Shown one piece after another: positions 5,465 to 23,653 of a DNA stretch of 24,000 bases; within the stretch, counting starts at the first letter, position 1; the number at the start of each line of letters is the position of its first letter. Source of the DNA: Hydrogenoanaerobacterium saccharovorans (GTDB lineage: Bacteria; Bacillota; Clostridia; Oscillospirales; Ruminococcaceae). The DNA lies in assembly GCF_003814745.1 (NCBI RefSeq), contig NZ_RKRD01000001.1, forward strand, positions 1,793,947 to 1,817,946, read 5' to 3'. Under the pieces are notes generated by a model. That model was not told where the DNA came from, ran no database searches, and worked only from the letters and a program-made list of their open reading frames with translations. The position numbers were made by a program, and so were the translations under genes.

Positions 5465-6496
5465 TCAAACTATCGGCTCCATAAATACGGTAAGCGTGCC
5501 GCCGCACACCATGCCCGCCTGTTTGGCATCGGTATTGGTCATGTTGCAGGTAGAAATTTGAGGTTTACCGGATTTGATGACGTCTGCCGTCATAGCACAT
5601 ATCTGCCCCTCGCCTGCCCCTCCGCCAATGCTGCCACTGAGGATTTTCCCCTGCGCATCAAGAAGCATTTTAGCGCCTGTGCTGCGAGGTGCCGAACCGT
5701 TTTTGGTAATAATGGTTGCCATCATCTCCGCCTGATTTATGTTATCAAGGCACTCAAGCATGCTGTCCTCCATACAGCCTTCGGCAAAACCCGAACGGCG
5801 AACTTGCACCAATTCTGCCGCAATGCAAACTGCAATTTCGGCAGGGGTTTGTGCACCTATTTTAAGCCCGATGGGTGCATACACCTGAGCAAGCTGTTCT
5901 TCGCTATAGCCATCTTCTTTCATTTGCTGCATAACCACTGCAACCTTGCGTTTGCTGCCTATCATACCCACATAAGCATACGGACGGTGCAATATCTCCT
6001 CAAGGCACTGGCGGTCGGCTGAATGCCCGCGCGTAACGATAACATAATAGGTGTTGGGGTTGCTTTCCAACTGTTCAAAGGCACTTTTAAAGTCGGCACA
6101 AATTACGTTGTGAACCGTTGAAAAACGTTGGATGTTGGCAAACTCCTCGCGGTCATCGATGACGGTGACTTCAAAATCGAGCATTACGCCGATTTGCGCA
6201 AGAGGCAGCGAAATATGCCCGCCTCCGCAAATAACCAGCCGCGGGCGGCGCACTAAATTTTCGGCAAGAACCTGGATACCATTTATTTCAGCGGTACATG
6301 GTGCATTTTCGAAGCGGCTGTCTGACGTTGCACTATGCCAAAATGGGAGCAGTAAATCATTTTGTGCAAGCAGAGTTTCGCTTGTACGCAGTGCTTTCTG
6401 CCCTGCATTTTCACCTGAAATGATGGTATAAAGCTGTACACTGCCTTTATCGCGAATATAACGTGCAACTTCTTTGTAAAACTGATAATTATTCAT
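5465..6496 (-). CDS. XdhC/CoxI-family molybdenum hydroxylase maturation protein (343 aa)
   Basis: Rossmann segment RLVICGGGHISLPLAQIG…VTVIDDRE. C-terminal XdhC_CoxI-type segment …GSAPRSTGAKML…GSIGGGAGEG…GMVCGGTLTVFMEP. Its start overlaps the yqeB stop by 8 nt. Confidence 0.85.
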   Translation of the reverse strand: MNNYQFYKEVARYIRDKGSVQLYTIISGENAGQKALRTSETLLAQNDLLLPFWHSATSDSRFENAPCTAEINGIQVLAENLVRRPRLVICGGGHISLPLAQIGVMLDFEVTVIDDREEFANIQRFSTVHNVICADFKSAFEQLESNPNTYYVIVTRGHSADRQCLEEILHRPYAYVGMIGSKRKVAVVMQQMKEDGYSEEQLAQVYAPIGLKIGAQTPAEIAVCIAAELVQVRRSGFAEGCMEDSMLECLDNINQAEMMATIITKNGSAPRSTGAKMLLDAQGKILSGSIGGGAGEGQICAMTADVIKSGKPQISTCNMTNTDAKQAGMVCGGTLTVFMEPIV

Positions 6497-7289
6497 ATTT
6501 ATTCACCTCATTTGTAATGTGAAGAACCGCTTCAAGCACACCGCCGGCAATCGCGCGTGCCTTATCTGAAACTGTAAAACAATATTCGTATATTCCGCGC
6601 GGGTCAACATCCCCGCTTTTCATCCCCTCAAAAACAGGGGTATTGGGGGGCAGCATCCCCCGCACGATTCCATCAATATTGGTATAAACGGGCTTTGAAC
6701 CCACAGTTGCTACAACATCGCCGGCCTTAACCATATCGCCTATATCCGCAACAGGTGTAAAAATACCGTCACAGCAAGCACGTAAGATACGTTCGCTCGT
6801 AAAGCCTGCAATATTGCCCGGTATGCCGGTGTTAGCGGCTGCACTGCCTTTATAAAGCACACGCCCAAGGTTGTGCCCGCGTTTGGTTTCGATAACAGCG
6901 TGACAATCGACGCCTGCTGTAAAACCGGGCCCAAGTGCCACAACAGCAGGGGCATCGGTGATGGATGTGTTGATGTTCTTTTTTGCAATGATGGCATCTA
7001 TTACCGCTTGAGGGTGCAGCTCTTTGATAATTTCAGCTTCGGGGTCAACAACAATTGCAACCTCATTTTGCCTGAGAGTTTCCCATACCTCACCTAAATT
7101 CGTACACAAACTCGCGGTAATACCTTCCACCACGGCTTTTTGCTCGTACACCGCACGAGAGAATGCAACCGTGCGTCTGACTGTAGTGGGTTTTGCAGTT
7201 TCAGTCATCACTACATCAAACCCGCACATTTTAAGCCTGCATGCCACACCGGTTGCCAAATCGCCCGCGCCTTTTATTAAAATCAGCAT
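6489..7289 (-). CDS. yqeB: YqeB-family selenium-dependent molybdenum hydroxylase system protein (266 aa)
   Basis: N-terminus MLILIKGAGDLATGVACRL…VVMTETAKPTTVRRTVAFSRAVYE matches my recollection of the YqeB family. Sandwiched between yqeC and xdhC with overlapping stop/start codons. Confidence 0.8.
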   Translation of the reverse strand: MLILIKGAGDLATGVACRLKMCGFDVVMTETAKPTTVRRTVAFSRAVYEQKAVVEGITASLCTNLGEVWETLRQNEVAIVVDPEAEIIKELHPQAVIDAIIAKKNINTSITDAPAVVALGPGFTAGVDCHAVIETKRGHNLGRVLYKGSAAANTGIPGNIAGFTSERILRACCDGIFTPVADIGDMVKAGDVVATVGSKPVYTNIDGIVRGMLPPNTPVFEGMKSGDVDPRGIYEYCFTVSDKARAIAGGVLEAVLHITNEVNKYE

Positions 7290-8293
7290 TTTACAGTACC
7301 TCTTTTCTGAGAATAGTATTCGTATTGTTTTGATAAGAACGAGGTAACCGCCACCCGATGAACCCCTTCTTGCATCAGCAGACCTGCAATGATTCCCGCC
7401 TGCCCTCGCAAAAACTCGTTATCCGCTTGATTGAGCACTACCGTTAGCATAGCGCCGTAGTTGCCGTAAGAGTGATAAAGCAGCTTCGCCATATCTTGTG
7501 CTGTTATTTGGTGGGTATCTTTTACATTCAGCAGCTGCTGTGCGATGGGGGCACGGTGGCAAATTAACCCGATTGGCTTGCCCAGACATGAAAGCCCCCC
7601 CACTGCAATGATTTGGTCGGTACCCGAATAGATAACCGGTTCACGGTTATTAGGGACCTTAATAGGAAGGCAACGGGAACCATCTGCCTCAATCAGCAGA
7701 AAGTCTACCGACTTGTGTAAATAGCGAATCAGCTCTTCTGCAGGTGCCGACAATTTACCGTTTTCTTCAAGAGCGCCAACCGTTACAAAGCGGTGCTCTT
7801 TTAAAGCGATATCTATCTTTTCTAAATCACCGTCTGTTATTAAATAGGCACATTGCTGTGGATCAGGCCTAAAAATATGGGTGGTAGTGGTAACAGCAAC
7901 ACGTTTGCCCTGTTTTGCAAGCTCATTTGCAAGTGCGAACAAAAAAGTGGTTTTACCACCAGAGCCTACCAAAGAAATAACACGTTTACTGTTTAAGTCA
8001 ATTCCAAACAGCTCACATAATTTTGGCGTTCTGCTGCTGGTTTGTGCCAACGCGGCATAAGCTTCATCGCGCAGGCGCAGTATTTCAGTGGCATAGGTGA
8101 GCAGTTTTGTACCCTCTTGAGAAGGATAAACTGCCTTGGTTGTGCGCACAATCAAACGCATACCTAGTTCTTTTTCTAAACTGCTGATGTGGGCGCTGAT
8201 GGTAGGCTGGGTAAGAAAAAGCTGCTCGCCTGCTTTAGAAAAACTGCCCAGTTTGGCTACCCATACAAGCGCCTCTAGTTGCTTAAAATCCAT
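7283..8293 (-). CDS. yqeC: Fusion protein (336 aa): LysR-type HTH DNA-binding domain (aa 1-~90) plus YqeC-family selenium cofactor biosynthesis P-loop protein (aa ~100-336)
   Basis: The track ORF of 414 aa is trimmed to the ATG at 8293 (MDFKQLEALVWVAKLGSFSKAGEQLFLTQPTISAHISSLEKELG…, a LysR HTH_1 signature), which has a GAAAGGA RBS. The YqeC part carries VISLVGSGGKTT (nt 7946..7966) and VAVTTTTHIF. No stop or ATG separates the two parts. Confidence 0.8.
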   Translation of the reverse strand: MDFKQLEALVWVAKLGSFSKAGEQLFLTQPTISAHISSLEKELGMRLIVRTTKAVYPSQEGTKLLTYATEILRLRDEAYAALAQTSSRTPKLCELFGIDLNSKRVISLVGSGGKTTFLFALANELAKQGKRVAVTTTTHIFRPDPQQCAYLITDGDLEKIDIALKEHRFVTVGALEENGKLSAPAEELIRYLHKSVDFLLIEADGSRCLPIKVPNNREPVIYSGTDQIIAVGGLSCLGKPIGLICHRAPIAQQLLNVKDTHQITAQDMAKLLYHSYGNYGAMLTVVLNQADNEFLRGQAGIIAGLLMQEGVHRVAVTSFLSKQYEYYSQKRGTVKC

Positions 8294-8304
8294 AATAAAC
8301 GTCC

Positions 8305-8337
8305 TTTCGTGTAAACGTGTTCTTGTTTTTCGTGTAA
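8305..8337. repeat. Exact 10-nt direct repeat TTTCGTGTAA (8305..8314 and 8328..8337), interleaved with TAAACGT x2, in the yqeC/selD divergent region
   Basis: Read directly from the sequence. The copies are 23 nt apart. TAAACGT lies at 8296..8302 and 8312..8318. Confidence 0.7.
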
Positions 8338-8384
8338 GAATGGGGTAAGATAGAATACAAATAATCTTGATGGGAGGGTAAAAT

Positions 8385-9428
8385 ATGTCTGAGATGAAGG
8401 ATATGCGTTTAACACAAATGACCAAAAGCGCCGGTTGAGCATCCAAGATTGGACCAGGTGTCCTTGCACAAGTTTTGTGCAACTTACCAAAATTCTCCGA
8501 CCAAAACTTAATTGTAGGGTTCGACACCAGCGACGATGCTTGTGTTTATAAAATAAGTGATGAACTCGTTCTGATTCAAACGGTGGATTTCTTTCCGCCC
8601 ATTGTAGACGACCCATACATGTATGGGCAGATTGCCGCCACCAATGCGCTAAGCGATATTTACGCTATGGGTGCATCGCCAACGCTTGCAATGAATCTGC
8701 TTTGCTACCCGTCTTGCCTGCCGCAGGAAACGGTACAGGCAATTTTAGCGGGCGGCTACGACAAAGTGCGTGAAGCGGGTGCTATTATTGCTGGCGGGCA
8801 TACCATTGAAGACAGCGAACCCAAATACGGCTTGTGCGTCAGCGGGTTTGCACACCCCGATAAGATACTCAAAAACAGCGGCGCGCAAACAGGTGACTTG
8901 CTGATATTAACCAAACCGCTTGGCATTGGCATTCTTACAACTGCTGCAAAAGCAGATATGGCAGATGCCGTTGCTTATAGGCTTGCGGTTGAAAACATGT
9001 CTACACTGAACAAAGCCGCCTGTGAGGTTGTTTCGCGTTACCATGCGCATGCCTGCACCGATGTAACAGGGTTTGGCTTGCTTGGGCATGCTTTTGAGAT
9101 GGCGGATGGTTCTCGGCGCAGTATCAAACTGTTTTCTGGCGAAATACCCGTACTGCCCACTGCTGTAGAGCTAGCAGAAATGGGGATTATACCTGCAGGT
9201 GCATACACCAACATGAACTACCTGTACGAAAAGGTAAAGATAAACAACAGTGTGGCACGCAGTATGCGGGATATATTAGCGGACCCGCAAACCGCGGGAG
9301 GGTTGTTGGTTTCGGTCTCTGCAAAAGAGGCAACAGAAATGCTTGCCGAGTTGCAGCAGCGTACCCCTTGGGCACGCATCATCGGCGAGGTTGTGGATAA
9401 AACAGAACACAGCATCATTGTGGAATAA
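8385..9428 (+). CDS. selD: Selenophosphate synthetase SelD, a selenoprotein form (347 aa, Sec at codon 18 encoded by TGA 8436..8438)
   Basis: The track ORF starts at 8475, but the same frame is open upstream apart from one TGA. ATG at 8385 has a GGGAGGG RBS and gives MSEMKDMRLTQMTKSAG-U-ASKIGPGVLAQVL. That is the SelD N-terminal active-site motif, with Sec where E. coli has Cys17 and the Lys conserved 3 residues later. Confidence 0.9.
8439..8482 (+). promoter_or_regulatory. Candidate bacterial SECIS region downstream of the selD UGA
   Basis: Hairpin GGAC-CAGGU-GUCC (8451..8463) has a GGU-containing apical loop 17-21 nt after the UGA. A second hairpin UUGCACAA/UUGUGCAA lies at 8464..8482. The exact fold was not computed. 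Confidence 0.4.
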
Positions 9429-9441
9429 TGTGTCGCAACTG

Positions 9442-9470
9442 GCCTGCAGAGCTTTCTGCAGGCTTTTTTG
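9442..9470 (+). terminator. Rho-independent terminator of selD
   Basis: GCCTGCAGA (9442..9450) / TCTGCAGGC (9455..9463), followed by TTTTTTG. Confidence 0.85.
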
Positions 9471-9491
9471 TTTTTACAATAGACTTTGTAT

Positions 9492-9587
9492 TGGCGGGAG
9501 CATGTGGGAATCGAACCCACCCAGGCAGCAATCACTACCTGCAACGGTTTTGAAGACCGCAGGGCACACCAGCACCCATCTGCCCCC
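9492..9587 (-). tRNA. selC: tRNA-Sec (anticodon UCA), 96 nt with encoded CCA
   Basis: Hand-folded from the reverse complement GGGGGCAGAUGGGUGCUGGUGUGCCCU… Features: 8-position acceptor stem (7 pairs plus a G/A), 6-bp D-stem with 4-nt loop, anticodon loop CU-UCA-AA, 7-bp long variable arm, 5-bp T-stem with loop UUCGAUU, discriminator G, CCA. Confidence 0.92.
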
Positions 9588-9622: not shown

Positions 9623-11509
9623 TTATTTCAACGTGCGTACATCCCCTGTTTTATTTGTGATGCCAACAGCATCAAAGTACTCGAGCAACTGCTGTGCAGG
9701 CTTACGAGAAATACCCAGTAAATCACGGTATTGTGCGAGGGTAATGTTGCTGTTTTTCAATAGATACTGTTTCAGTTTTTGTACCGCCGAATTGTAATAT
9801 TCTGCACCAATACAGCATCCCGATGGTAATTTGATAAGTGCACCGCTATGCATCAACAAAAGGGCAACACGAAGCAGAGTTCGGTCATCAGATGCTATTG
9901 ATTCGGGCGGTGCAGGTACAAAGCCTTGTTTATTGTAAAAAAACATCACCTTTTCTTTTAACGTAACATAAAGCGAGGTGCGCTCACAGCAAAAAGTTGG
10001 CAGGGCAACCATATGGGATAGAACGGAAATAACCCCACGTTTATTCAGTAAATGTAATATTTCATCCGCTGCAGGTGCAGGGTTCTGCCCAAACAGCGCA
10101 ACTTTAAACTCCTGTTTTGGCATTCCTTCCTCTAGAGGGTTGCGATTATGATAATCGGAAAGAAGTGTCTGTGCTTTTTGTGCTATCAGTTGTAAATACT
10201 CTAATAATACAAACAGTTGTGAATCGGTTTTTATTACGTCGCCTTTGTCAATTAACGCTTGCAATTCTTCTTGAAGCCGCTCTTTTGGTATTTTAGGCAT
10301 TTTAGAGTGTATTTGTTCTTGCATATACAAAACAGATGATGTTCTCATCAACTGTAAAATTTGCTCGCGGAGTGTGCCTGTATCTGCTATACGAATCGCA
10401 TTTAGTACCGTAATATCACTGCGCTTATGGCGCACTGGGTTTGCATTCAGTACTGTCCCGCCGCCGATAGTACACAAAGGAGAGTAAAAACGAACCACAA
10501 ATCGGTCCCCGTTTCTAACTGCTACAGGGCTTTCTAAGCGAAGTTGTGCGTAAGCGCTTTTGCCTGCTTGCAGTTCGTTTGTACCAAACAAAACTATACG
10601 ACACAATACAGCCGAAGTGCCAATAAAAAGATGAACGCGCTGATTGTTGACAATTGGTTTTTCTATATTCGGCAAACCAATAAGCTTTACATCCAAATAG
10701 TATGTTGCACTCAATGAGCCTGAATAGGCAAGTACATCTCCGCGCTTTAGCTTTTGTTTGTTTATTCCGGTGAGATTTACCGCCGCACGCTGCCCCGCCG
10801 CCACTTTTTCAACATTTTTACCATAGCTTTGCAGCCCGCGTATCTTTGCAGCCTCTCCGCTTGGGTAAATGCTGATGCTATCGCCAACCGTAACAGAACC
10901 TTCGGCTACAACACCGGTTACTACCGTACCAAAGCCGTCTACGGTAAACACACGGTCGATAGGGAGCCGAAAGGACTGCGCGTCATTTTGGTAAGGGATA
11001 CTTGCAGAAATGGTTGCTATTGCCGTACACAAAGCGTCAATACCTACACCAGTCTTACAAGAAACCGCATATACCGGTGCATCTGCAAGAAAGCTGTTTG
11101 CAAAACGCTCTGCAATATCCTGCTTTGCAAGGGCAAGCCCCTCCGCATCGACAAGGTCTGTTTTAGTTATTACAACGATACCTCGTTTGATGCCGAGCAG
11201 AGATAATATTTCAAGGTGCTCTGCGGTTTGAGGCATAACGCCTTCGTCGGCAGCAACTACCATCAAGACAAGGTCGATACATCCTGCACCAGCAAGCATA
11301 TTTTTGATAAAGCGTTCGTGCCCCGGTACGTCGATAATGCCTGCCTGCACCCCATTGGGCAGCGCCATATGAGCAAAACCAAGGTCAATGGTAATTCCGC
11401 GGCGTTTTTCCTCTGCAAGGCGGTCGGTATCCATACCGGTAAGTGCACGAATCAGGCAGGTTTTACCGTGGTCGATGTGGCCTGCTGTTCCGATAATGAT
11501 ATGTTTCAT
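9623..11509 (-). CDS. selB: Selenocysteine-specific translation elongation factor SelB (628 aa)
   Basis: GTPase N-terminus [53 protein letters not shown], and a long C-terminal winged-helix-type extension. Its ATGA start overlaps the selA stop. Confidence 0.93.
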
Positions 11510-12888
11510 AGTGCGTTTGCTACCCCCTGTGCCACCAAATCGAACTCATGCTCATCTATGGTGGAAACATCGAGCAACAAGCGGTTTTCGCTGATGCGTG
11601 CAATGATAGGTGTTTCAAAAGCACGCAATTTCTGTTCCAGCTGTGTAACGGTTATTTTATAAGGTGCAATTGCAACCGCCGCAGTTGGAAATACCTGTGC
11701 AGGTAAACTACCGCCACCCGCCTGCCGCTGTTGCCGAACCACCTCTACTGTATACCCAGGGCAGTTATCTAAAATCTTTTGGCATAGCAACTGTGCTTTT
11801 TCAGTTAGAGTGGCAATGTCTGCGAAAAGCATACGCAAAGCGGGGATTTCTTTGCATGCCTGTACAGGGTCACGATACAAATGCAGTGTTGCCTCAAGTG
11901 CTGCGAGCGATAATTTATCAAGCCTCAATGCTCGTGCTAGAGGGCTGCGTTTCATTCGGTTGATACATTCCGCAGAGCCTACAATAATACCAGCCTGTGG
12001 ACCACCAAGCAGCTTATCACCGCTAAAGGTTACTATATCTGCACCGTCACGCAGAGCCTGCGGCACAGTTGGCTCAATCGAAATAGGGTATGCATGTTCA
12101 TCAAGCAAAGCACCGCTTCCAAGGTCATATACAACGGGGATATTGCGTTGTTTGCCCAGCTTTGCAAGCTCAGTGAGCGGCACATCACCCGAAAATCCGA
12201 TAATTTTATAGTTGCTGGTATGCACTTTTAAAAATACCGCTGTTTGGTCGGTTATTGCATTTACGTAGTCGCGCAGATGGGTTTTGTTGGTTGCGCCCAC
12301 TTCAACCAAGCGCCCGCCGCTCTGCTCCATAATATCGGGGACACGAAAGCTATCGCCGATTTCTACCAATTCTCCGCGTGAAACAATAATTTCCCTATTG
12401 TTCGCAAGGGTGGAAAGTGTTAGCAAAATAGCCGCCGCGTTGTTGTTTACCGCCATTGCTGCTTGTGCCCCTGTAAGCTCGCAGAGCAGAGGTTCTATGT
12501 GCTCTCCTCGATTGCCTCGTGCGCCCTTTTCCGCATCGTATTCTAACGTGGAATACCCCGAAGCAGCGTCATACACTGCCTGCAACGCCGATTTACTCAG
12601 CGGAGCTCGCCCAAGGTTGGTGTGCAGAACAATACCCGTTGCATTGATGACACGCCGCAGGCTCATCGTGCTCAAGCAATTTGCCCTTGCCAACACCGCG
12701 TTACTAAGGCATTCTGTTGACGGCACTTCGTTGCACTCGCCTGCGATAAGCTTGGCTCGTAGGCTATCCAGTTCGGCGCGAACCGCCTGCAAAAGAACTG
12801 AATGATGATATTGCTGCTGTAAAAGCGCAGGCTGACGCAAAAGTTCGTCCACTTTTGGAATTTGGCGCAAAAGCGGGTTGGATGGCAT
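11506..12888 (-). CDS. selA: L-seryl-tRNA(Sec) selenium transferase SelA (460 aa from ATG 12888; a TTG one codon upstream is possible)
   Basis: N-terminal [12 protein letters not shown] motif, [32 protein letters not shown]-lysine region. GGAG RBS sits in the 17-nt gap after the upstream gene. Confidence 0.92.
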
Positions 12889-12908
12889 CAAGCAACGCTC
12901 CTTTCGTC

Positions 12909-14066: not shown

Positions 14067-14115
14067 CTTTATCACCTCATAAAGCTATGATACTATTTTT
14101 TCTAAAAAACCGCTA

Positions 14116-15531: not shown

Positions 15532-15771
15532 ATGATAACCTATATTGCAACTTTTTTTACCCACTTTGATGCAATCAGTTTTGCAAAGACACTGCACAAA
15601 AATGGGTTGGATGCAAAGCCAATGCCCGTGCCACGCAGGCTGTCATCCTCTTGCGGCACTTGCGTAAAATTCACCTCAGATGCTAGTCCATTAAATTACA
15701 AGCATGAGGGCATTGAGCAAATCGTATCTGTATCAGAAGACCACTATCAACTAGTATGGGACAATCGTTAG
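15532..15771 (+). CDS. DUF3343-like small protein (79 aa)
   Basis: Pattern …FFTHFDAISFAKTLHKNGLDAKPMPVPRRLSSSCGTCVKF matches my recollection of DUF3343. That domain is the C-terminal half of long YedF proteins. Begins 5 nt after the yedF stop. Confidence 0.7.
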   Translation: MITYIATFFTHFDAISFAKTLHKNGLDAKPMPVPRRLSSSCGTCVKFTSDASPLNYKHEGIEQIVSVSEDHYQLVWDNR

Positions 15772-16845: not shown

Positions 16846-16890
16846 AAATTTTACCTCTTTCGGTTTATAATTGGCAAATTTCACAATTAA

Positions 16891-16973: not shown

Positions 16974-18170
16974 TTATTTCTGCATCCAACGCTCTAAGCC
17001 ACGAGCCTCAAGAGCAGCAAGTGTCTTCTGAGGATCTTTTACTTTGGCCAAGAAGATCATAGCAGCAATGATGTAAGGTTTGTAGGAAGCCTCTTTGTAC
17101 AAAGGTGTGCGGTAGCGATCGAATACCGATGCAGCAACTTCGCCCTCTTTGCAGCTAACGCCTGTAATATCGGCAGGCAGGCAGTGCATGTAAAGTGCTT
17201 TGCCGTCTTTTGTGGTTTTCATCAGCTCTTCGGTGCACTCCCAATCTTTGTGGTTGGCATTTTGAGCAAGCAGCTCTTTCTCAAGAACTTTGATACCGTC
17301 AAAATCGTTTTCGCCGTAAAGGTTGGTACGCTTCTCCATTGCAGCAAACGGTGCCCAGCTCTTGGGGTAAACAACGTCAGCATCTTTAAATGCTTCTGCC
17401 ATGCTATTTACTTTCTTAAAGCTACCGCCGGAAGCAGCTGCGTTTTTCTTAGCAACTTCTTCAACCTCAGGCATTACTTCGTAGCCCTCGGGATGTGCAA
17501 GGACAACATCCATGCCGAAACGAGTCATCAAGCCGATGATGCCCTGAGGAACAGACAGAGGTTTGCCGTAAGAAGGAGAATATGCCCAAGTCATAGCAAT
17601 CTTTTTGCCCTTCATATTCTCAATGCCGCCAAAATGGTGAACCAGAGCCAAAGCGTCTGCCATTGCCTGTGTGGGATGGTCAATATCGCACTGTAAGTTC
17701 ACAAGAGTTGGTCTCTGCTCGAGAACGCCTTCTTTATTACCTTCTTGTACTGCTTCAGAAACTTCGTGCATGTAAGCATTGCCTTTGCCGATGTACATAT
17801 CATCACGGATACCGACGACGTCTGCCATAAAGGAAACCATGTTAGCAGTTTCACGAACGGTTTCACCATGTGCTATCTGAGATTTACCCTCATCCAAATC
17901 TTGTACTTCAAGACCCAGCAGGTTGCAAGCAGATGCAAAGCTGAAACGTGTTCTGGTAGAGTTGTCGCGGAAAATGGAAATACCCAAACCGCTGTCAAAA
18001 ATTTTGGTAGAAACGTTCTGTTCACGCAGATGGCGCAGAGCGTCTGCTACGGTGAAAACAGCTTTCAGTTCGTCGTCGGTTTTCTCCCAAGTCAGGAAGA
18101 AATCGTTTTGATACATTTTAGAGAAATCAAGTTTATTAAGAGTTTCGATATATTTGTTAAGTCCGCTCAT
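16974..18170 (-). CDS. ygeW: YgeW-type (knotted) carbamoyltransferase, 398 aa
   Basis: Transcarbamylase motifs FRDNSTRTRFSF and MHCLPA. The long N-terminal extension and overall length are typical of YgeW rather than OTC or ATC. Context with ygeX, ygeY and carbamate kinase. Confidence 0.85.
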   Translation of the reverse strand: MSGLNKYIETLNKLDFSKMYQNDFFLTWEKTDDELKAVFTVADALRHLREQNVSTKIFDSGLGISIFRDNSTRTRFSFASACNLLGLEVQDLDEGKSQIAHGETVRETANMVSFMADVVGIRDDMYIGKGNAYMHEVSEAVQEGNKEGVLEQRPTLVNLQCDIDHPTQAMADALALVHHFGGIENMKGKKIAMTWAYSPSYGKPLSVPQGIIGLMTRFGMDVVLAHPEGYEVMPEVEEVAKKNAAASGGSFKKVNSMAEAFKDADVVYPKSWAPFAAMEKRTNLYGENDFDGIKVLEKELLAQNANHKDWECTEELMKTTKDGKALYMHCLPADITGVSCKEGEVAASVFDRYRTPLYKEASYKPYIIAAMIFLAKVKDPQKTLAALEARGLERWMQK

Positions 18171-18232: not shown

Positions 18233-19429
18233 TTATTTATTGCAGTAGATTGAAGGCATTGCGGCATAAACAGCAGCGCAACGAACCAAATCTTCTTTCC
18301 ATGTTTTCTCGTTGGGAGCATGTGCCTGAGCCTCTTTACCGGGGCCAAAGCCGATGCAAGGGATGCCATAACGGCCCATAATGGAAACACCGTTGGTAGA
18401 GAAAGTCCATTTATCTACCTTAGGCTCACCGTACATGCCTTTGTAAGCCTCAACCATTGCTTTTGTAGCAGCATGATCTTCGGGAATAACCCAAGTTGGG
18501 AAGTAGCAGTCGGTGGGGTAAACAAGCCCGGTCCAAGACGGACGCTCGTAGGTGTACATGCTAACTTCTGCACCGTATTTCTTGCAAGAAGGCAGGTTAC
18601 GTACTTCTTCCAAAGCCATCTCGTAGGTTTCACCATCGGTGAGGCGGCGGTCAAGAGAAACTGCACAAGAGTCTGCAACAGCGCAGCGAGAGGGAGATGT
18701 GTAGAAAATCTGAGAAGTGGTAACGGTACCTTTACCCAAGAACGGATCGTAGTGGAGGTTATTATTCAGCTCGCGAACTTCTTGCAGGATATCTGCCATT
18801 TTGTAGATAGCATTATCGCCGCGCTCGGGTGCAGAACCGTGGCAGGATACACCTTTTACATCAATACGGATTTCCATACGTCCGCGCTGGCCACGGTAAA
18901 TGTTGCCGTCTGTTGGCTCGGTAATCACAACGAATTCCGGTTTCACTTTGTCTTCGTTGATGATGTACTGCCAGCAAAGTCCGTCGCAGTCTTCTTCCTG
19001 TACAGTGCCTGTTACAACAACAGTGTATTTATCGCTGAGAAGACCAAGATCTTTCATGATTTTTGCGCCGTATACGCCGGAAACAATACCGCCCAACTGG
19101 TCGGAGGTTCCGCGTCCGCCGATTTCGGTTTCTGTTTCGAAACCTTCATAGGGGTCAAATGTCCAGTTTGCTTTGTTGCCGATACCAACGGTATCGATAT
19201 GAGCATCGTAGCCGATGAGGGTTTTACCTGTGCCCATATAACCCAGAATATTACCCATCGGGTCGATTACAACTTTATCAAAGTTGAGGTCTTTCATCTC
19301 TTTTTCAATTCTTTTGATGACGCCCTCCTCTTCGCAGCTTTCGCCGGGGATAGCAACGAGATCACGCAGGAATTTTGTCATTGCAGCTTCGTAACCCTGA
19401 GCTGCTTCTTTGATTTTGTTAAAATCCAT
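18233..19429 (-). CDS. ygeY: YgeY-family M20 metallohydrolase (selenium-metabolism-linked peptidase/deacylase family), 398 aa
   Basis: M20 motifs ([10 protein letters not shown], …EEDCDG…, …[12 protein letters not shown]). Size and the ygeW/ygeX neighbourhood fit. Confidence 0.85.
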
Positions 19430-19503
19430 GATTGTAGTCTCCTTTTCAAATTTTTGTTTATCGCAGATTTATTTACTGAAAAATATGCCTTTGCCGTGGT
19501 AGC

Positions 19504-20724
19504 TTATTTGTTGCAGTAGGTTGGATGAGCACCGTTCCAAACAATGCCGCGGTAACTATCAGGGTCGGTGTCTCCCTCGGTGGAGAACATCAAAATTTTA
19601 GAGTTTTCGTCAAGCTTCAGCGCTTCACGAAGGTCTTTATACTCATCGCTCTCCATCAGAGTAGCAATCAGGCCCATACCAACTGCACCTGATTCGCCCG
19701 AGACCACCTGCGGGTCACCTTTCATGGGTGCCCCAAGCATTCTCATACCTTTTGCAGCTACCCAATCGGGGCAGGATACAAAGAAACTGCTGTGATTTTT
19801 AAGAATATCCCAAGAAATTGTGTTTGGCTCACCACATGCCAAACCTGCCATAATCGTTTGCAAATCACCCTCTGCAAAACGGATTTTACCATCTTGCTCA
19901 GCAGCAGATTTGTAGAGACAAGCTGCAATTTCAGCTTCCATAATCACAGTGGTGGGGCAGTTATCGGGGTACATATTGGCAAAGAAGCCCTGCACCGCAC
20001 CTGCCAACGAGCCTACACCTGCTTGCACAAAAATGTGAGTGGGTCTGTCCACACCGGCTGCTTTCAGCTGTTCGTAAGCCTCCATTGCCATGGTGCCATA
20101 GCCTTGCATAATCCAAGCGGGGATTTCTTCGTAGCCGTCCCATGCAGTGTCTTGCACCATAACGCCGTGCTCGGTTTTTTGCGCCATTGAATTTGCCATT
20201 CGAACACATTCGTCGTAGTTAACTTCTTCGATGCTAACCTTTGCACCCTCTTTTGCAATATTGTCAAAACGGGTTTTGGTAGAGCCTTTGGGCATAAGTA
20301 CAACCGATTTTTGACCAAGTTTGTTTGCCGCCCAAGCAACGCCTCTGCCGTGGTTGCCGTCGGTAGCGGTAAAGAAAGTTGCCTGACCAAACTCTTCGCG
20401 GAGTTTATCGGAGGTTAAGTAATTATAATCAACTTCAGAAACGTCTTTGCCAAGCTGCTGGGCTATGTAACGAGCCATGGCAAAAGAACCGCCCAATACT
20501 TTGAATGCATTTAAACCAAAACGATAAGATTCATCTTTAACAAAAAACTCTTTAACACCAAGCACCCCTGCCATATTCTTTAAATGTGCCAAAGGTGTGG
20601 TTGTATATTGCGGAAAGCTTTTATGGAATGCTCTTGCTTTTTCTACCTCAGACAGCGCCATAACTTTTAGCTTCGCGTCATCGGTTTTAGGCATTTTGTT
20701 TTCTACCCATTTGATCTTATCCAT
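19504..20724 (-). CDS. ygeX: Diaminopropionate ammonia-lyase (YgeX/DpaL), 406 aa
   Basis: PLP fold-type II enzyme with DESYRFGLNAFKVLGGSFA (Lys) and TATDGNHGRGVAW. Start trimmed to ATG 20724 behind AGGAGGGG. Confidence 0.88.
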   Translation of the reverse strand: MDKIKWVENKMPKTDDAKLKVMALSEVEKARAFHKSFPQYTTTPLAHLKNMAGVLGVKEFFVKDESYRFGLNAFKVLGGSFAMARYIAQQLGKDVSEVDYNYLTSDKLREEFGQATFFTATDGNHGRGVAWAANKLGQKSVVLMPKGSTKTRFDNIAKEGAKVSIEEVNYDECVRMANSMAQKTEHGVMVQDTAWDGYEEIPAWIMQGYGTMAMEAYEQLKAAGVDRPTHIFVQAGVGSLAGAVQGFFANMYPDNCPTTVIMEAEIAACLYKSAAEQDGKIRFAEGDLQTIMAGLACGEPNTISWDILKNHSSFFVSCPDWVAAKGMRMLGAPMKGDPQVVSGESGAVGMGLIATLMESDEYKDLREALKLDENSKILMFSTEGDTDPDSYRGIVWNGAHPTYCNK

Positions 20725-20787
20725 TCGACAAACCCCTCCTAATTTTATAGCGGCAATTTTCATTGCGTAGTGTTGCTTTATGTCTCC

Positions 20788-20815: not shown

Positions 20816-20887
20816 TAGATTTTCTAAAAAATTTTTAGATTTGCTCAAAAATATTTTATTTTTACCATAAAGTTGCTGTTTTATAGC

Positions 20888-20916: not shown

Positions 20917-21094
20917 ATCTAATAGTAACACTATAACTCTTTTAATGTTTTTTAATTGTGTACAAAGTGCAGTAAAGTCATACTTCGATTAAATTGTACC
21001 GAACCTAAAATATTTTTAGGGGTTTTAGCGTCGTTATAAAAACGAGTGCTTCGTGCACGGGCTACATTAAATATTGGGGAAACGAGGTGCAGTA

Positions 21095-23653
21095 ATGTTT
21101 GAATTCGTGGTTAACGGAAAGACAACTTTTGCACAGAAGGATGAAAAGCTGATTACATATTTAAGAGAAACGCTTCATCTCACTTCTGTAAAAAACGGAT
21201 GCTCTGAAGGTGCATGCGGAACATGTATGGTTTTGGTAGATGGCAAGGCGACAAAAGCCTGTATTTTAACCACAGCACGCGCAGCAGGTAAAAGCATTGT
21301 TACCGTAGAGGGGCTATCCTCTCGTGAAAAAGATGTTTACGGTTATGCATTTACGCATGTTGGTGCCGTACAATGTGGATTTTGTACACCGGGTATGGTC
21401 ATCAGTGCCAAAGGCTTGATTGACACAAACCCAAATCCATCGCCTATGGATGTAAAAGAAGCGATTAAAAATAACATTTGCCGTTGCACCGGTTATAAAA
21501 AAATAGAAGAGGCAATTTTGCTTTCTGCTAAACTGTTCCGCGAGAACACCGCTGTACCAAAACAAGAATTTTGCGGTGTAATTGGCGAAAACCTGCACCG
21601 TGTGGATGCCACCGCTAAAGCACTTGGTACAGCAGAATATGCCGATGATATCCATATAGACGGCATGCTGTATGGAAGTGCAGTACGCAGCAGCTATCCC
21701 CGCGCCCTTGTAAAACATATTGATGTCACCGAAGCAAAAGCATTGCCCGGTGTTGTTACTGTGCTTACCGCTGCCGATTTGCCCGGCAACCATAAAATTG
21801 GGCATTTGAAAAAAGATTATGATGTGTTGATTGCCGAGGGTAAAGAAACTCATTTTATCGGCGATGCAATTGTGCTGATTGCGGCAGAAAGCAAGGAAAT
21901 TTTGGAAGAAGCCAAAAAGCTTGTTAAAATTGATTTTGAAGAGCTGAAACCCGTTCTGTCTGTTCAGGATTCGATAGCAGAGGGTGCGCCGTTGATTCAC
22001 GAAACCGGTAACCTGCTTGCCGACGAACATTTGGTGCGCGGCGACGCCGACGAAACAATAAAAAATTCGAAACACTCTGTAACAATGCGTTACAGCACAC
22101 CTTTTACCGACCATGCGTTTCTTGAACCCGAAACTGCAGTTGCAATGCCAGAAGGTGACGGTGTGCTTATTTACTCAGGTGACCAGGGTATTTATCAGAC
22201 ACGCAAAGAGTGCAGCGAAGCACTTGGATTGCCCGAAGATAAAGTACGCGTCATTGCAAAAATGGTAGGCGGTGGTTTTGGCGGCAAAGAAGATATGAGT
22301 GTTCAGCATCATGCTGCTGTTCTCGCATACAAATCTCAACGCCCCGTTAAAGTTTCTTTTACGCGGAAAGAAAGTATTATGATACACCCCAAACGCCACC
22401 CGATGGAGATGGAGTTTACCACTGCATGTGACGAAAACGGTTACCTCACAGCGATGAAGGCAACATTGCTTGCCGATACAGGTGCTTATGCGTCACTCGG
22501 CGGCCCTGTTTTGCAAAGAGCTTGTACGCATGCGGCAGGTCCATACAATTATCAAGTAATTGATATCCACGGGCAGGCTTGGTATACCAATAACCCGCCT
22601 GCAGGCGCATTCCGCGGCTTTGGTGTAACACAAAGTTGCTTTGCAACAGAGTGCAACCTCAACCTGTTGGCTGAAAAAGTAGGCATATCCCCTTGGGAAA
22701 TACGCTATCGTAACGCAATTCGTCCAGGTGAGGTATTGCCTAACGGACAAATCGCAGATGAATCTACCGCATTGGTAGAAACTTTGGAGGCTGTAAAACC
22801 ATACATGGATGCTCACCCCAAAGCAGGTATTGCTTGTGCAATGAAGAACAGCGGGCTTGGCGTCGGCATCCCCGATACCGGACGCTGCCGACTAACCGTC
22901 AAAGATGGAAAGGTGCATATCCACAGCAGTGCAGCTTGCATTGGGCAGGGTATGGGTACCGTTGTTACACAAATGGTTTGCACAACTCTTAGTCTCTCCC
23001 CCGAACAAGTAATTTATGATGCGCCCGACACAAAAGAAGCACCCAATGCAGGCAATACAACTGCATCCCGTCAGACACTGTTTACCGGCGAGGCAACCCA
23101 CCGCGCTGCTATGGCACTGAAAGAAGCACTGGGCAGTAATTCGCTCGAAAGCCTGAACGGCAGAGAGTTTATAGGCGAATACCTCGGTGTAACCGATAAA
23201 ATGGGCAGTGACAAGCCAAACCCCGTCAGCCATATTGCTTACGGTTATGCAACTCACGTGGTAGATTTGGATGAAAGCGGCAAGCTTTTAAAGGTAATTG
23301 CAGCACATGATGTTGGCAAAGCGGTTAACCCCATCAGCGTTGAAGGGCAAATTGAAGGTGGCGTTGTTATGAGCCTTGGATACGCTTTAACCGAAGATTT
23401 TCCGCTGAAAGACGGTGTTCCCACCGCGAAATACGGTACACTTGGCTTAATGAAATCGACGCAAGTACCTGAAATTGAGTCGATGATCATTGAGAAGAGC
23501 CACAGTGACTTGGCATACGGCGCAAAAGGTATCGGTGAAATCTGCTCTATTCCCACTCCACCCGCAGTTCAGCTTGCTTACTACAACTTGGACGGCAAGT
23601 TTAGAACAAAACTGCCGATGGAAGACACCCCCTACTCCAGAAAAAAGAAATAA
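21095..23653 (+). CDS. Selenium-dependent-type molybdenum hydroxylase (xanthine dehydrogenase-like): fused [2Fe-2S] plus molybdopterin-binding polypeptide, 852 aa
   Basis: N-terminal CSEGACGTCMVLVDG…AC, VQCGFCTPGMV and CRCTGY form the two 2Fe-2S sites. These are followed by aldehyde-oxidase/XDH a/b-hammerhead and Mo-binding motifs (GGGFGGKE, AFRGFG, AYGAKGIGE). Start trimmed from TTG 21074 to ATG 21095 behind GAGGTG. Confidence 0.88.
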   Translation: MFEFVVNGKTTFAQKDEKLITYLRETLHLTSVKNGCSEGACGTCMVLVDGKATKACILTTARAAGKSIVTVEGLSSREKDVYGYAFTHVGAVQCGFCTPGMVISAKGLIDTNPNPSPMDVKEAIKNNICRCTGYKKIEEAILLSAKLFRENTAVPKQEFCGVIGENLHRVDATAKALGTAEYADDIHIDGMLYGSAVRSSYPRALVKHIDVTEAKALPGVVTVLTAADLPGNHKIGHLKKDYDVLIAEGKETHFIGDAIVLIAAESKEILEEAKKLVKIDFEELKPVLSVQDSIAEGAPLIHETGNLLADEHLVRGDADETIKNSKHSVTMRYSTPFTDHAFLEPETAVAMPEGDGVLIYSGDQGIYQTRKECSEALGLPEDKVRVIAKMVGGGFGGKEDMSVQHHAAVLAYKSQRPVKVSFTRKESIMIHPKRHPMEMEFTTACDENGYLTAMKATLLADTGAYASLGGPVLQRACTHAAGPYNYQVIDIHGQAWYTNNPPAGAFRGFGVTQSCFATECNLNLLAEKVGISPWEIRYRNAIRPGEVLPNGQIADESTALVETLEAVKPYMDAHPKAGIACAMKNSGLGVGIPDTGRCRLTVKDGKVHIHSSAACIGQGMGTVVTQMVCTTLSLSPEQVIYDAPDTKEAPNAGNTTASRQTLFTGEATHRAAMALKEALGSNSLESLNGREFIGEYLGVTDKMGSDKPNPVSHIAYGYATHVVDLDESGKLLKVIAAHDVGKAVNPISVEGQIEGGVVMSLGYALTEDFPLKDGVPTAKYGTLGLMKSTQVPEIESMIIEKSHSDLAYGAKGIGEICSIPTPPAVQLAYYNLDGKFRTKLPMEDTPYSRKKK

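What the first reader, a model, noticed from the sequence alone, without database searches (positions are those of the whole stretch)
5465..23653. Sec decoding, labile-Se molybdenum cofactor and Se trafficking genes packed with purine-fermentation enzymes in one ~18 kb block
Within 18 kb, with no unrelated gene interspersed, lie:
- selD, selC, selB and selA (Sec incorporation)
- yqeB, yqeC and an xdhC-like gene (markers of the non-Sec Se-dependent molybdenum hydroxylase trait, as proposed from comparative genomics, e.g. Haft and Self 2008)
- a NifS-like enzyme plus yedE, yedF and DUF3343 (Se/S mobilisation and transport)
- the presumptive client enzyme (XDH-like)
- the ygeW/ygeX/ygeY/carbamate-kinase set

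In E. coli these functions are scattered or only partly clustered. Here the arrangement reads like a self-contained module: take up Se, activate it, insert it in two different ways, and use it to degrade purines. The chemistry of YqeB/YqeC and the way Se reaches the Mo centre remain unresolved, so this compact locus is a good experimental handle.
Basis: partly seen in the sequence, partly recalled or inferred. Interest (0 to 1): 0.7.

Follow-up and report, generated by a model that had tools for sequence, protein, structure and literature searches.

The report
Selenium and urate-breakdown gene neighbourhood
This stretch of a gut/sludge-type Clostridia genome (Hydrogenoanaerobacterium) really does pack the genes for taking up and activating selenium, inserting it into proteins and into a molybdenum enzyme, and breaking down uric acid; this is a known type of locus, and its one unreported feature is that the accessory gene yqeC is fused to the DNA-binding head of the neighbouring selenium regulator.

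Summary
No unrelated gene lies between them.

The same content, without selAB, was described for E. faecalis EF_2563-EF_2582 and E. coli ygeV-ygfN in 2008. The Se-trafficking genes were described in 2015, and the ygeWXY/ygfK pathway was solved biochemically in 2025 as the Se-dependent 2,8-dioxopurine (reductive urate) pathway.

The block is not self-contained. ygfK and a hydantoinase lie just outside the window, behind two unrelated genes, and ssnA was not seen. The 'XDH-like' client is more likely the urate/2,8-dioxopurine dehydrogenase. Having selABC and yedE/F in the same neighbourhood is unusual (0-1 of 80 in two samples).

Two things were missed. First, selD is itself a selenoprotein, with a covarying SECIS hairpin. 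Second, 'yqeC' encodes a 336-aa fusion of the LysR_Se DNA-binding domain to YqeC, made by in-frame loss of the effector domain. The fusion is kept under strong purifying selection and is confined to one small clade. It suggests that a GTPase-like YqeC domain now governs a selenium regulator.

The parts
2876..4582 (+). Adenine deaminase. It is also adjacent in relative L005.
   Evidence: TIGR01178, 556 bits against a cut-off of 472; L005 context.
5465..6496 (-). XdhC-family Moco chaperone with permuted domain order (Rossmann XdhC_C first, then XdhC_CoxI).
   Evidence: Pfam PF13478 at residues 87-229 and PF02625 at 258-314. NCBIfam equivalogs are below cut-off. Collinear homologues occur in many yqeC loci.
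6489..7289 (-). YqeB, the Se-dependent molybdenum-cofactor maturation protein.
   Evidence: TIGR03309, 374 bits against a cut-off of 220. A 100% identical protein is named from Hydrogenoanaerobacterium saccharovorans. The AF2 model has pLDDT 94.
7283..8293 (-). Fusion gene of 336 aa. Residues 1-86 are the LysR_Se winged-HTH plus linker helix, the junction is at 87-90, and the YqeC P-loop NTPase domain runs from 91 to 336.
   Evidence: Pfam HTH_1 and YqeC; TIGR03172 at 194 bits; NF040786 matches only profile positions 1-88. Junction mapped. AF2 and Foldseek. Conservation.
8294..8384 (.). 91-bp divergent control region. It holds a conserved sigma-70-like selD promoter: -35 TTGTTT, 17-nt spacer, -10 TAAGAT on the + strand.
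   Evidence: Alignment of six related intergenic regions, read directly from the sequence. No operator has been shown.
8385..9428 (+). selD, selenophosphate synthetase. It is itself a selenoprotein, with UGA at 8436-8438 as codon 18.
   Evidence: TIGR00476 at 403 bits. The TGA is conserved in all 8 distinct related loci that carry selD (L001/L002/L003/L008 being copies of the window locus), and Cys replaces it in 14 other loci.
8464..8482 (+). SECIS hairpin of selD: 8-bp stem with a GUU loop, 25 nt after the UGA.
   Evidence: Fold. 100% of cells pair, two pairs show compensatory changes, and 0 of 500 shuffles reach the covariation score.
9441..9464 (+). Intrinsic-terminator-like hairpin after selD.
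   Evidence: 10-bp stem followed by a T-run.
9492..9587 (-). selC, tRNA-Sec (anticodon UCA), directly downstream of selB.
   Evidence: ARAGORN. Rfam RF01852 at 77.3 bits against a cut-off of 47.
9623..11509 (-). selB, the Sec-specific elongation factor, with its SECIS-binding winged-helix domains.
   Evidence: TIGR00475 at 372 bits against a cut-off of 242. Pfam WHD_2nd/3rd_SelB.
11506..12891 (-). selA, Sec synthase.
   Evidence: TIGR00474 at 588 bits against a cut-off of 268.
12909..14075 (-). NifS-like PLP enzyme of the EF2568/SclA type (probable selenocysteine lyase / Se donor). First gene of the nifS-selA-selB-selC unit.
   Evidence: TIGR01977 at 438 bits against a cut-off of 377. SclA exception model at 408 bits, below its cut-off of 525.
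14251..15333 (+). YedE, putative selenium transporter.
   Evidence: TIGR04112 at 524 bits against a cut-off of 200.
15317..15526 (+). Short TusA-type YedF. The longest ORF starts at 15290; the source assembly's gene call gives a 69-aa product.
   Evidence: Pfam TusA at 63.6 bits. TIGR03527 at 57 bits, below its cut-off of 110. Gene call.
15532..15771 (+). DUF3343 / Se-S carrier-like small protein. It was not called as a gene in the source assemblies.
   Evidence: PF11823 at 46.5 bits against a cut-off of 25. Absent from the gene lists.
15916..16884 (-). Carbamate kinase (YqeA-type). The gene call gives 15916-16845.
   Evidence: TIGR00746 at 398 bits against a cut-off of 358.
16974..18170 (-). 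YgeW, knotted carbamoyltransferase.
   Evidence: TIGR03316 at 799 bits against a cut-off of 500.
18233..19429 (-). YgeY, M20 hydrolase.
   Evidence: TIGR03526 at 693 bits against a cut-off of 322.
19504..20763 (-). YgeX, 2,3-diaminopropionate ammonia-lyase. The gene call gives 19504-20724.
   Evidence: TIGR03528 at 655 bits against a cut-off of 532.
21074..23653 (+). Fused 2Fe-2S + molybdopterin hydroxylase with no FAD subunit. It is the probable Se-dependent urate/2,8-dioxopurine dehydrogenase. The gene call gives 21095-23653.
   Evidence: TIGR03311 at 1461 bits against a cut-off of 830. The best solved relatives are D. gigas aldehyde oxidoreductase and E. barkeri nicotinate dehydrogenase. 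Full-length homologues of 52-69% identity lie next to YgfK in 41 of 80 loci.

Best explanation
**What the locus is.** It is a consolidated selenium-utilisation plus reductive urate-catabolism neighbourhood of Hydrogenoanaerobacterium (Oscillospiraceae).

**Proposed flow.** This is inferred from family membership and published work on orthologues. Nothing has been measured in this organism.
1. YedE, TusA-type YedF and DUF3343 bring in and carry selenium.
2. The SclA-type NifS enzyme mobilises Se.
3. SelD makes selenophosphate. SelD is itself a selenoprotein, decoded through its own SECIS.
4. Selenophosphate feeds SelA, tRNA-Sec and SelB for Sec insertion.
5. It also feeds YqeB, YqeC and XdhC for the labile-Se molybdenum cofactor of the 852-aa FeS-Mo hydroxylase.
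6. That enzyme most likely reduces urate to 2,8-dioxopurine.
7. YgfK and a hydantoinase, just outside the window, then YgeY, YgeW with carbamate kinase (yielding ATP), and YgeX take it on to pyruvate and ammonia.
8. Adenine deaminase feeds purines in from the left side.

**The new element.** In relatives, a full-length LysR_Se regulator gene sits between selD and yqeC. Here an in-frame deletion removed its effector-binding domain and joined its DNA-binding domain and dimerising linker helix to YqeC.

**How the fusion most likely works.** It probably still binds the 91-bp selD/yqeC control region. A GTPase-like YqeC domain would take the place of the LysR effector domain, so that transcription of selD and of the yqeC-yqeB-xdhC operon responds to nucleotide or cofactor-assembly state.

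**Confidence.** The figure of 0.75 applies to the identity of the locus and the origin of the fusion. The regulatory role of the YqeC domain is much less certain (about 0.25; see the novel case).
For: **Family assignments.** All pass curated cut-offs apart from XdhC (below the NCBIfam equivalog cut-offs) and YedF (below TIGR03527).

**selD as a selenoprotein.** The Sec codon and the covarying SECIS are shown.

**Conserved core.** selD<->(lysR)-yqeC-yqeB-xdhC recurs in relatives.

**Published support.**
- The same gene content was described for E. faecalis and E. coli (PMC2276186).
- YedE, YedF, DUF3343 and LysR_Se were predicted as Se genes (PMC5322559).
- SelD and YqeB are needed for growth on urate and xanthine (PMC11448449).
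- The pathway is solved and its DOPDH depends on SelD (bioRxiv 10.1101/2025.04.24.650524 and 10.1101/2025.05.19.654654).

**Client enzyme.** Full-length homologues of 52-69% identity lie beside YgfK in 41 of 80 loci.

**Fusion.**
- Pfam finds HTH_1 plus YqeC.
- The identical protein is found on 13 contigs.
- Eight 90%-identity clusters, 56-100% identical to the window protein, all carry both domains.
- A full-length LysR_Se (341 bits against a cut-off of 250) lies upstream of yqeC in L009-L011, with its HTH 66-68% identical to the fusion's.
- The junction is at residues 87-90.
- The HTH is more conserved than YqeC: 72% against 62% mean identity, and dN/dS 0.04-0.09 against 0.11-0.14, with dS above 1.
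- The AF2 model (pLDDT 94) places residues 1-87 on the BenM DNA-binding domain (TM 0.95, 1.2 A). The C-terminal domain resembles the SRP54, FtsY and MeaB GTPases.
- All residues invariant across YqeC are retained.
Against: - No expression, binding or enzyme data exist for this organism.
- The pathway is incomplete within the sequence I could read. SsnA was not found, and YgfK and HyuA are separated from the block by two unrelated genes.
- The genes lie in at least six transcription units in alternating orientation, and relatives rearrange them.
- NCBIfam names the hydroxylase a xanthine dehydrogenase. Direct orthology to C. sporogenes DOPDH was not tested.
- No operator was identified. The only conserved intergenic block is explained by the selD promoter, and the motif does not recur in the window.
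- A C. difficile yqeC deletion had no phenotype, so the role of YqeC is uncertain.
- A regulatory role for the YqeC domain is inference only.
Confidence: 0.75

Rival explanations
1. The block is a loose neighbourhood, not a module. The genes are several independent operons that happen to have drifted together in this lineage. Their co-location has no regulatory or functional meaning beyond that of the already known small sub-clusters.
For: - At least six units lie in alternating orientation.
- Relatives rearrange the sub-blocks:
  - L005 has a two-component system between selB and selD and lacks yedE/F there.
  - L006 keeps only selD-yqeC-yqeB-xdhC.
  - L007 places selAB on the other side.
- selA and selB are within 10 kb of yqeC in 1 of 80 species, and the ygeWXY/CK genes in 0-1 of 80.
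- selD is within reach of YgfK in 3 of 80 loci, and selAB in none.
- GC content is uniform, with no sign of an island.
Against: - All 16 consecutive genes belong to two functionally coupled systems, and the pathway's Mo enzyme needs SelD.
- The same co-location arose independently in E. faecalis and E. coli.
- L007 and L009 keep most of the Se genes together.
Confidence: 0.3
2. The FeS-Mo enzyme is a true selenium-dependent xanthine dehydrogenase (hypoxanthine/xanthine to urate), as its NCBIfam name says, and not the urate/2,8-dioxopurine dehydrogenase.
For: - The TIGR03311 equivalog is named 'selenium-dependent xanthine dehydrogenase', and the protein scores 1461 bits against it.
- The family's founding member EF2570 was reported as a Se-dependent XDH (cited in PMC11448449).
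- The HMM score is higher against E. coli XdhA models (394 bits) than against the XdhD/YgfN model TIGR03313 (244 bits).
Against: - C. sporogenes DOPDH has the same fused FeS + Mo architecture, the same size and no FAD subunit.
- The gene is divergent from ygeX-ygeY-ygeW-CK and near hyuA-ygfK.
- Homologues sit beside YgfK in 41 of 80 loci.
- In C. sporogenes the separate XDH is a different enzyme.
Confidence: 0.25
3. The HTH::YqeC fusion is a tolerated scar. The deletion merely put yqeC under the lysR start codon. Either the HTH is functionally irrelevant, or it binds DNA constitutively without any input from YqeC.
For: - The event is a simple in-frame deletion between adjacent genes.
- The fusion is confined to one 50%-identity cluster among 1.84 billion representatives.
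- No operator was found.
- The junction segment is poorly conserved (42% identity).
Against: - A neutral HTH should decay, yet it is the most conserved part (72% identity; dN/dS 0.04-0.09 with saturated dS).
- It keeps a complete LTTR DNA-binding-domain fold with the 28-residue linker helix.
- The constitutive-binding version of this rival is not excluded by any of my data.
Confidence: 0.3

Closest known systems
E. faecalis EF_2563-EF_2582 and E. coli ygeV-ygfN (b2866-b2881) SDMH/purine loci (Haft and Self 2008, PMC2276186)
   Same: These loci contain yqeB, yqeC, an FeS-Mo hydroxylase of the EF2570 type, carbamate kinase, ygeW, ygeY, ygeX, a hydantoinase and ygfK. In E. faecalis they also contain selD and the NifS-like EF2568. 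All lie in one extended locus.
   Different: - This window adds selA, selB, selC, yedE, yedF and DUF3343.
- It has a Sec-containing selD.
- It lacks ygfJ/mocA and, as far as I could read, ssnA.
- Its yqeC is fused to a LysR HTH.
The 2,8-dioxopurine / reductive urate pathway gene cluster of C. sporogenes and E. coli (Liu et al. 2025; Li et al. 2025, bioRxiv)
   Same: It has an XdhAC-type FeS-Mo enzyme without an FAD subunit, YgeX, YgeY, YgeW with carbamate kinase, and YgfK and HyuA nearby. Both depend on SelD and YqeB/C.
   Different: - Here the Se machinery is physically adjacent. That is rare around YgfK: selD in 3 of 80 loci and selAB in 0 of 80.
- YgfK and HyuA are split off by two unrelated genes.
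- SsnA was not found.
- Enzyme identity rests on homology and context only.
LysR_Se (NF040786; HrsM in Methanococcus), the selenium-linked LysR-type regulators (Lin et al. 2015, PMC5322559)
   Same: The fusion's residues 1-88 match this family best. They are 66-68% identical to the full-length LysR_Se found at the same position in relatives. The gene is divergent from selD, as in a classical LTTR arrangement.
   Different: - The whole effector-binding domain is missing and YqeC takes its place.
- The protein fails the family cut-off (108.7 bits against 250).
- The separate lysR promoter seen in relatives is also absent.
SIMIBI-class cofactor-delivery GTPases (MeaB, and the SRP54/FtsY fold) as the working analogue for YqeC
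   Same: Both have a P-loop GxGGKT. YqeC has an invariant N288-x-x-D291 resembling the NKxD guanine motif. Foldseek finds resemblance to SRP54, FtsY and MeaB.
   Different: - No sequence-level membership was found: the best PDB E-value is 3e-4, over the P-loop only.
- TM-scores are low (0.32-0.38) because the model has two domains.
- No nucleotide-binding data exist.

Membership tests
Sec-decoding trait (SelA/SelB/SelC/SelD) | All four components are present and score above their curated thresholds. | tested here: met
   selA 588 vs 268, selB 372 vs 242, selD 403 vs 125. tRNA-Sec 77 vs 47.
Sec-decoding trait (SelA/SelB/SelC/SelD) | At least one in-frame UGA followed by a SECIS hairpin. | tested here: met
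   selD has UGA at codon 18. An 8-bp hairpin follows, with a G-first loop starting 34 nt after the UGA, 100% pairing and 2 compensatory pairs.
Se-dependent molybdenum hydroxylase (Se-cofactor) trait | The marker genes yqeB (TIGR03309) and yqeC (TIGR03172) are present together with selD. | tested here: met
   374 vs 220 and 194 vs 73. YqeC is present as a domain of a fusion.
Se-dependent molybdenum hydroxylase (Se-cofactor) trait | A molybdenum hydroxylase client carrying labile, non-Sec selenium. | not testable with these tools
   A TIGR03311 enzyme is present (1461 bits). Its Se content needs biochemistry.
2,8-dioxopurine (reductive urate) pathway cluster | DOPDH (XdhAC/XdhD) orthologue. | tested here: inconclusive
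   The architecture, size and context match. No direct sequence comparison with the characterised enzyme was possible, and the NCBIfam name says XDH.
2,8-dioxopurine (reductive urate) pathway cluster | YgfK (DOPOR) and HyuA hydantoinase. | tested here: met
   TIGR03315 scores 904 vs 835 on a truncated product, and TIGR02033 scores 599 vs 393. Both genes lie outside the window, after two unrelated genes.
2,8-dioxopurine (reductive urate) pathway cluster | SsnA amidohydrolase. | tested here: not met
   It was not found in the window or in the 5.4 kb read beyond it. The contig further upstream could not be fetched.
2,8-dioxopurine (reductive urate) pathway cluster | YgeY, YgeW, carbamate kinase and YgeX. 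| tested here: met
   All are above their equivalog cut-offs.
LysR-type transcriptional regulators (for the fusion protein) | N-terminal winged HTH plus linker helix. | tested here: met
   PF00126 at 67.9 bits. The AF2 model superposes on the BenM DNA-binding domain (TM 0.95, rmsd 1.2 A).
LysR-type transcriptional regulators (for the fusion protein) | C-terminal LysR_substrate effector-binding domain. | tested here: not met
   There is no PF03466 hit. NF040786 matches only profile positions 1-88 of 298, scoring 108.7 against a cut-off of 250. So the fusion is not a member of the LTTR family, although its head works like one.
XdhC family (Moco insertion chaperone) | XdhC_CoxI domain followed by the XdhC_C Rossmann domain. 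| tested here: inconclusive
   Both domains are present but in the reverse order. The equivalog cut-offs are not reached (298.6 vs 350; 131 vs 162).
YedF (TIGR03527, long form) | TusA-like domain plus a C-terminal DsrE-like domain. | tested here: not met
   Only the TusA domain is present, and the score is 57 against a cut-off of 110. A separate DUF3343 gene follows.

The most novel reading that the evidence does not exclude
The HTH::YqeC protein is a new type of transcription factor. A SIMIBI GTPase-like cofactor-assembly protein replaces the LysR effector domain. Nucleotide-dependent or client-dependent dimerisation of YqeC would then set the geometry of the DNA-binding heads. This would couple transcription of selD and of the yqeC-yqeB-xdhC operon directly to the flux of selenium into the molybdenum cofactor. 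If true, the ligand that switches DNA binding would reveal what YqeC binds.
Probability: 0.25. Interest if true: 0.6.

Novelty: new variant of a known kind. Interest (0 to 1): 0.35.

Why it matters
The block itself adds little. The link between selD, yqeB/C, NifS-like genes, Mo hydroxylases and the ygeWXY/ygfK purine genes has been known since 2008, and the pathway was solved in 2025.

The locus has some practical value. It belongs to Hydrogenoanaerobacterium saccharovorans, a named species, or a very close relative, and all three parts (Sec decoding, Se trafficking and the Se-cofactor system) sit next to the client pathway.

The fusion is the more useful lead. How selenium reaches the Mo centre, and what YqeC does, are still open; deleting yqeC in C. 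difficile gave no phenotype. A YqeC domain that has taken the place of a regulator's sensor domain and has been kept under strong selection offers a simple readout for YqeC ligands, namely DNA binding or reporter expression. It also argues that YqeC senses or handles a small molecule or nucleotide tied to selenium status.

Tried and rejected
1. **LysR operator.** I looked for one in the 91-bp selD/yqeC region. The conserved block (AAAAnnCAAG ... TAnnnTA) turned out to be the selD promoter read on the other strand: -35 TTGnnT, 17 nt, -10 TAnnnT. The motif does not recur elsewhere in the window (2 matches against 1.2 expected). The apparent 22-bp direct repeat overlaps the ribosome-binding site. 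No operator is claimed.
2. **Promoter and terminator scan.** It showed no enrichment over shuffles, apart from the clear selD terminator.
3. **Riboswitches and other RNAs.** Rfam found only tRNA-Sec at gathering and at E <= 0.5. A tmRNA-like hit at E = 0.029 is chance.
4. **Solved structures for YqeC and YqeB.** YqeC gave only P-loop-level hits, and YqeB gave none. The YqeB AF2 model (pLDDT 94) has no global PDB match (TM <= 0.28); only Rossmann-like and barrel-sandwich domain-level resemblances appear.
6. **Reading further along the source contig to find ssnA.** The exact-match look-up of the XDH ORF failed because I used the wrong start. A metagenome scan with YgfK returned only relatives of 51-64% identity, which I used as a context sample instead.
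7. **Genome scan for the source species.** The organism was named through a 100% identical YqeB.
8. **Internal start codon near the fusion junction.** None is evident.
9. **Genomic island.** Rejected, because GC is uniform at 40-48%.
10. **The 399-aa ORF at 18320-19519(+), antisense to ygeY.** It has no family hit and I treat it as spurious.

Full report
**1. What is in the window**

- xdhC-like, 5465-6496(-)
- yqeB, 6489-7289(-)
- a yqeC-containing gene, 7283-8293(-)
- selD, 8385-9428(+)
- tRNA-Sec, 9492-9587(-)
- selB, 9623-11509(-)
- selA, 11506-12891(-)
- a NifS-like gene of the EF2568/SclA type, 12909-14075(-)
- yedE, 14251-15333(+)
- a short TusA-type yedF, ending at 15526(+)
- DUF3343, 15532-15771(+)
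- carbamate kinase, 15916-16884(-)
- ygeW, 16974-18170(-)
- ygeY, 18233-19429(-)
- ygeX, 19504-20763(-)
- a fused 2Fe-2S/molybdopterin hydroxylase, 21074-23653(+), TIGR03311 at 1461 bits

All but two exceed their curated cut-offs. XdhC passes Pfam but not the NCBIfam equivalogs. YedF has only the TusA domain. The gaps between genes are too short to hold other genes.

The organism is Hydrogenoanaerobacterium. A 100% identical YqeB is named from H. saccharovorans. The window matches contigs from several assemblies at 96-100% protein identity.

**2.

*selD is a selenoprotein.*
- Its reading frame carries TGA at 8436-8438, as codon 18 in the motif G-U-A-S-K.
- Gene callers therefore truncated it to 317 aa.
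- The TGA is conserved in all 8 distinct related loci that carry selD. Fourteen more distant yqeC-linked selD genes have Cys there.
- An 8-bp hairpin at 8464-8482 follows the UGA. Across eight distinct loci it pairs in 100% of cells and has two pairs with compensatory changes at synonymous sites. No shuffle out of 500 reaches its covariation score.

*The 'yqeC' gene is a fusion.*
- It encodes a 336-aa protein whose first 88 residues are a LysR-type HTH. The best match is the selenium-linked LysR_Se model NF040786, profile positions 1-88 only.
- Residues 105-303 are YqeC.

**3. Origin and status of the fusion**

- It is not an assembly artefact. The identical protein is found on 13 contigs.
- Eight 90%-identity clusters, 56-100% identical to the window protein, all carry both Pfam domains.
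- In all three distinct fusion-bearing loci examined (L001, L005, L006) the gene is divergent from selD and followed by yqeB and xdhC.
- Anaerotruncus massiliensis (L009), Oscillospiraceae PP1C4 (L010) and a third relative (L011) carry a gene at that position, between selD and a separate yqeC, whose HTH is 66-68% identical to the fusion's. In L009 and L010 it is a full-length LysR ORF of 302-322 aa, and the L010 product scores 341 bits against the NF040786 cut-off of 250.
- BLASTP places LysR homology up to about residue 86 and YqeC homology from residue 91.
- The fusion therefore arose by an in-frame deletion that removed exactly the effector-binding domain.
- The HTH has been maintained:
  - Mean pairwise identity among the eight clusters is 72% for residues 1-62. 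It is 62% for YqeC and 42% for the junction.
  - dN/dS is 0.04-0.09 for the HTH against 0.11-0.14 for YqeC, with synonymous sites saturated.
- AlphaFold2 (pLDDT 94, pTM 0.81) gives a winged HTH and a 28-residue linker helix. These superpose on the BenM DNA-binding domain (TM 0.95, 1.2 A).
- The C-terminal domain resembles the SRP54, FtsY and MeaB GTPases.
- The YqeC P-loop and an invariant N288..D291 (NKxD-like) are retained.
- An exhaustive HMMER pass over 1.84 billion representatives found the HTH+YqeC arrangement only in this one 50%-identity cluster.
- That pass also found a single 528-aa protein (P0128, on one contig) that joins a complete LysR to YqeC.
- Other YqeC fusions involve MocA-like nucleotidyltransferases, an NTPase, and GNAT+XdhC. 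This fits a role for YqeC in Moco handling.
- No paper in the searchable library mentions a LysR-YqeC fusion.

**4. The control region**

Only 91 bp separate the two start codons. The block conserved across fusion-bearing and non-fusion loci reads, on the selD strand, as a sigma-70-like promoter: TTGTTT, 17 nt, TAAGAT. The invariant positions are those of a -35 and a -10 element.

Relatives with full-length lysR have an extra TGnTATAAT promoter for lysR, which the fusion loci lack. I could not identify an operator. DNA binding by the fusion is therefore inferred from conservation and fold, and has not been shown.

**5. The purine side**

Literature in the library shows that the ygeW/ygeX/ygeY/yqeA/ygfK/ssnA/hyuA set, with an XdhAC/XdhD hydroxylase, forms the 2,8-dioxopurine (reductive urate) pathway. 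That pathway yields ATP through YgeW and carbamate kinase, and pyruvate through YgeX. Its hydroxylase needs SelD. In C. difficile, SelD and YqeB, but not YqeC, are needed for growth on urate and xanthine.

The window's hydroxylase has the same fused FeS-Mo architecture and size as C. sporogenes DOPDH, and it has no FAD subunit. It is divergent from ygeX-ygeY-ygeW-CK. Full-length homologues of 52-69% identity lie beside YgfK in 41 of 80 metagenomic loci. I therefore read it as the probable urate/2,8-dioxopurine dehydrogenase, at moderate confidence. The NCBIfam name 'xanthine dehydrogenase' stays as a rival.

Reading 5.4 kb beyond the window shows a transglutaminase-like gene, an HAAS/RDD membrane-protein gene, then a hydantoinase (TIGR02033) and YgfK (TIGR03315). 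SsnA was not seen. Adenine deaminase lies at 2876-4582, and at the same relative position in a relative.

**6. How unusual the packing is**

Counts of window-protein homologues (tblastn, at least 50% coverage) in two samples of 80 loci. The first is centred on yqeC, +-10 kb, in 80 other species. The second is centred on YgfK in metagenomic contigs.

| Gene | Around yqeC | Around YgfK |
|---|---|---|
| yqeB | 67 | 20 |
| yqeC | 80 (the anchor) | 17 |
| selD | 46 | 3 |
| nifS-like | 35 | 4 |
| XDH-like | 34 | 45 |
| xdhC | 28 | 1 |
| yedF | 25 | 1 |
| yedE | 8 | 0 |
| DUF3343 | 8 | 0 |
| selA | 1 | 0 |
| selB | 1 | 0 |
| ygeW | 1 | 27 |
| ygeX | 1 | 37 |
| ygeY | 0 | 33 |
| carbamate kinase | 0 | 23 |
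| hyuA | not queried | 24 |

The pairwise associations are thus common and already described. Haft and Self 2008, Table 1, lists nearly the same content for E. faecalis EF_2563-EF_2582. Lin et al. 2015 cover YedE, YedF, DUF3343 and LysR_Se.

Having the Sec machinery, Se trafficking, the Se-cofactor genes and the catabolic genes all in one neighbourhood is rare in both samples. Close relatives shuffle the sub-blocks, and GC content is uniform. 'Consolidated neighbourhood' describes it better than 'self-contained module'.

**7. Verdict**

The locus is a new member of a known kind. One genuine variant feature stands out: a LysR_Se DNA-binding head fused to YqeC. This is unreported in the literature I could search, old, under strong selection, and restricted to one clade.

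My preferred mechanism is that a GTPase-like YqeC domain now serves as the sensor of a selD/yqeC regulator. I give the full sensing version about 0.25 probability. A constitutive-binding or functionally neutral fusion remains possible.

Noticed in passing
window 5465-6496(-); also L004, L006, L009-L011 and about 20 other yqeC-linked loci; P0194: The XdhC-like protein has its two Pfam domains in reverse order: XdhC_C Rossmann at residues 87-229, then XdhC_CoxI at 258-314. The arrangement is collinear in homologues down to 33% identity. It also occurs inside a 749-aa GNAT+YqeC+XdhC fusion.
   Followed up: partly
L089 109-1695 (protein P0128): A 528-aa protein joins a complete LysR (HTH plus LysR_substrate domain) to YqeC. 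It is followed by a 306-aa gene and two Mo hydroxylase genes. It was seen on a single contig, so it could be a real intermediate form or a sequencing error.
   Followed up: partly
window 8385-9428 and 15532-15771: Automated gene calls in the source assemblies truncate selD at its UGA (317 aa instead of 347). They also omit the DUF3343 gene altogether.
   Followed up: yes
window 6489-7289(-) (YqeB): YqeB is far more conserved across Clostridia (60-70% identity, including C. botulinum) than YqeC (35-45%). Its invariant residues include C129 and C237. The AF2 model (pLDDT 94) shows a Rossmann-like N-terminal half and a barrel-sandwich C-terminal half, with no global match in the PDB.
   Followed up: partly
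L005 6167-8515; L004 1982-5523 and 14962-18471: Relatives insert other genes into the neighbourhood. L005 has a histidine kinase/response regulator pair between selB and selD. L004 has a molybdate ABC transporter and a ModE-like HTH next to selA, and Moco biosynthesis genes (moaA, moaC, MoCF_biosynth, MOSC) after xdhC.
   Followed up: no
window 1205-2733(+): A 111-aa protein with weak P-II-like similarity (E = 0.007) sits directly upstream of a CPA2-type Na+/H+ exchanger-family gene. The pair is retained in identical strains, and L005 appears to keep only a 114-aa gene at that position.
   Followed up: no
window 18320-19519(+): A 399-aa ORF lies antisense to ygeY and has no family match. It is most likely a spurious ORF.
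   Followed up: yes
window 4723-5307(-) and 23728-24000(-): A 194-aa protein with a lipoprotein-like N-terminus and no family lies between adenine deaminase and xdhC. At the right edge is the 3' end of a transglutaminase-core gene that separates the hydroxylase from hyuA-ygfK.
   Followed up: no
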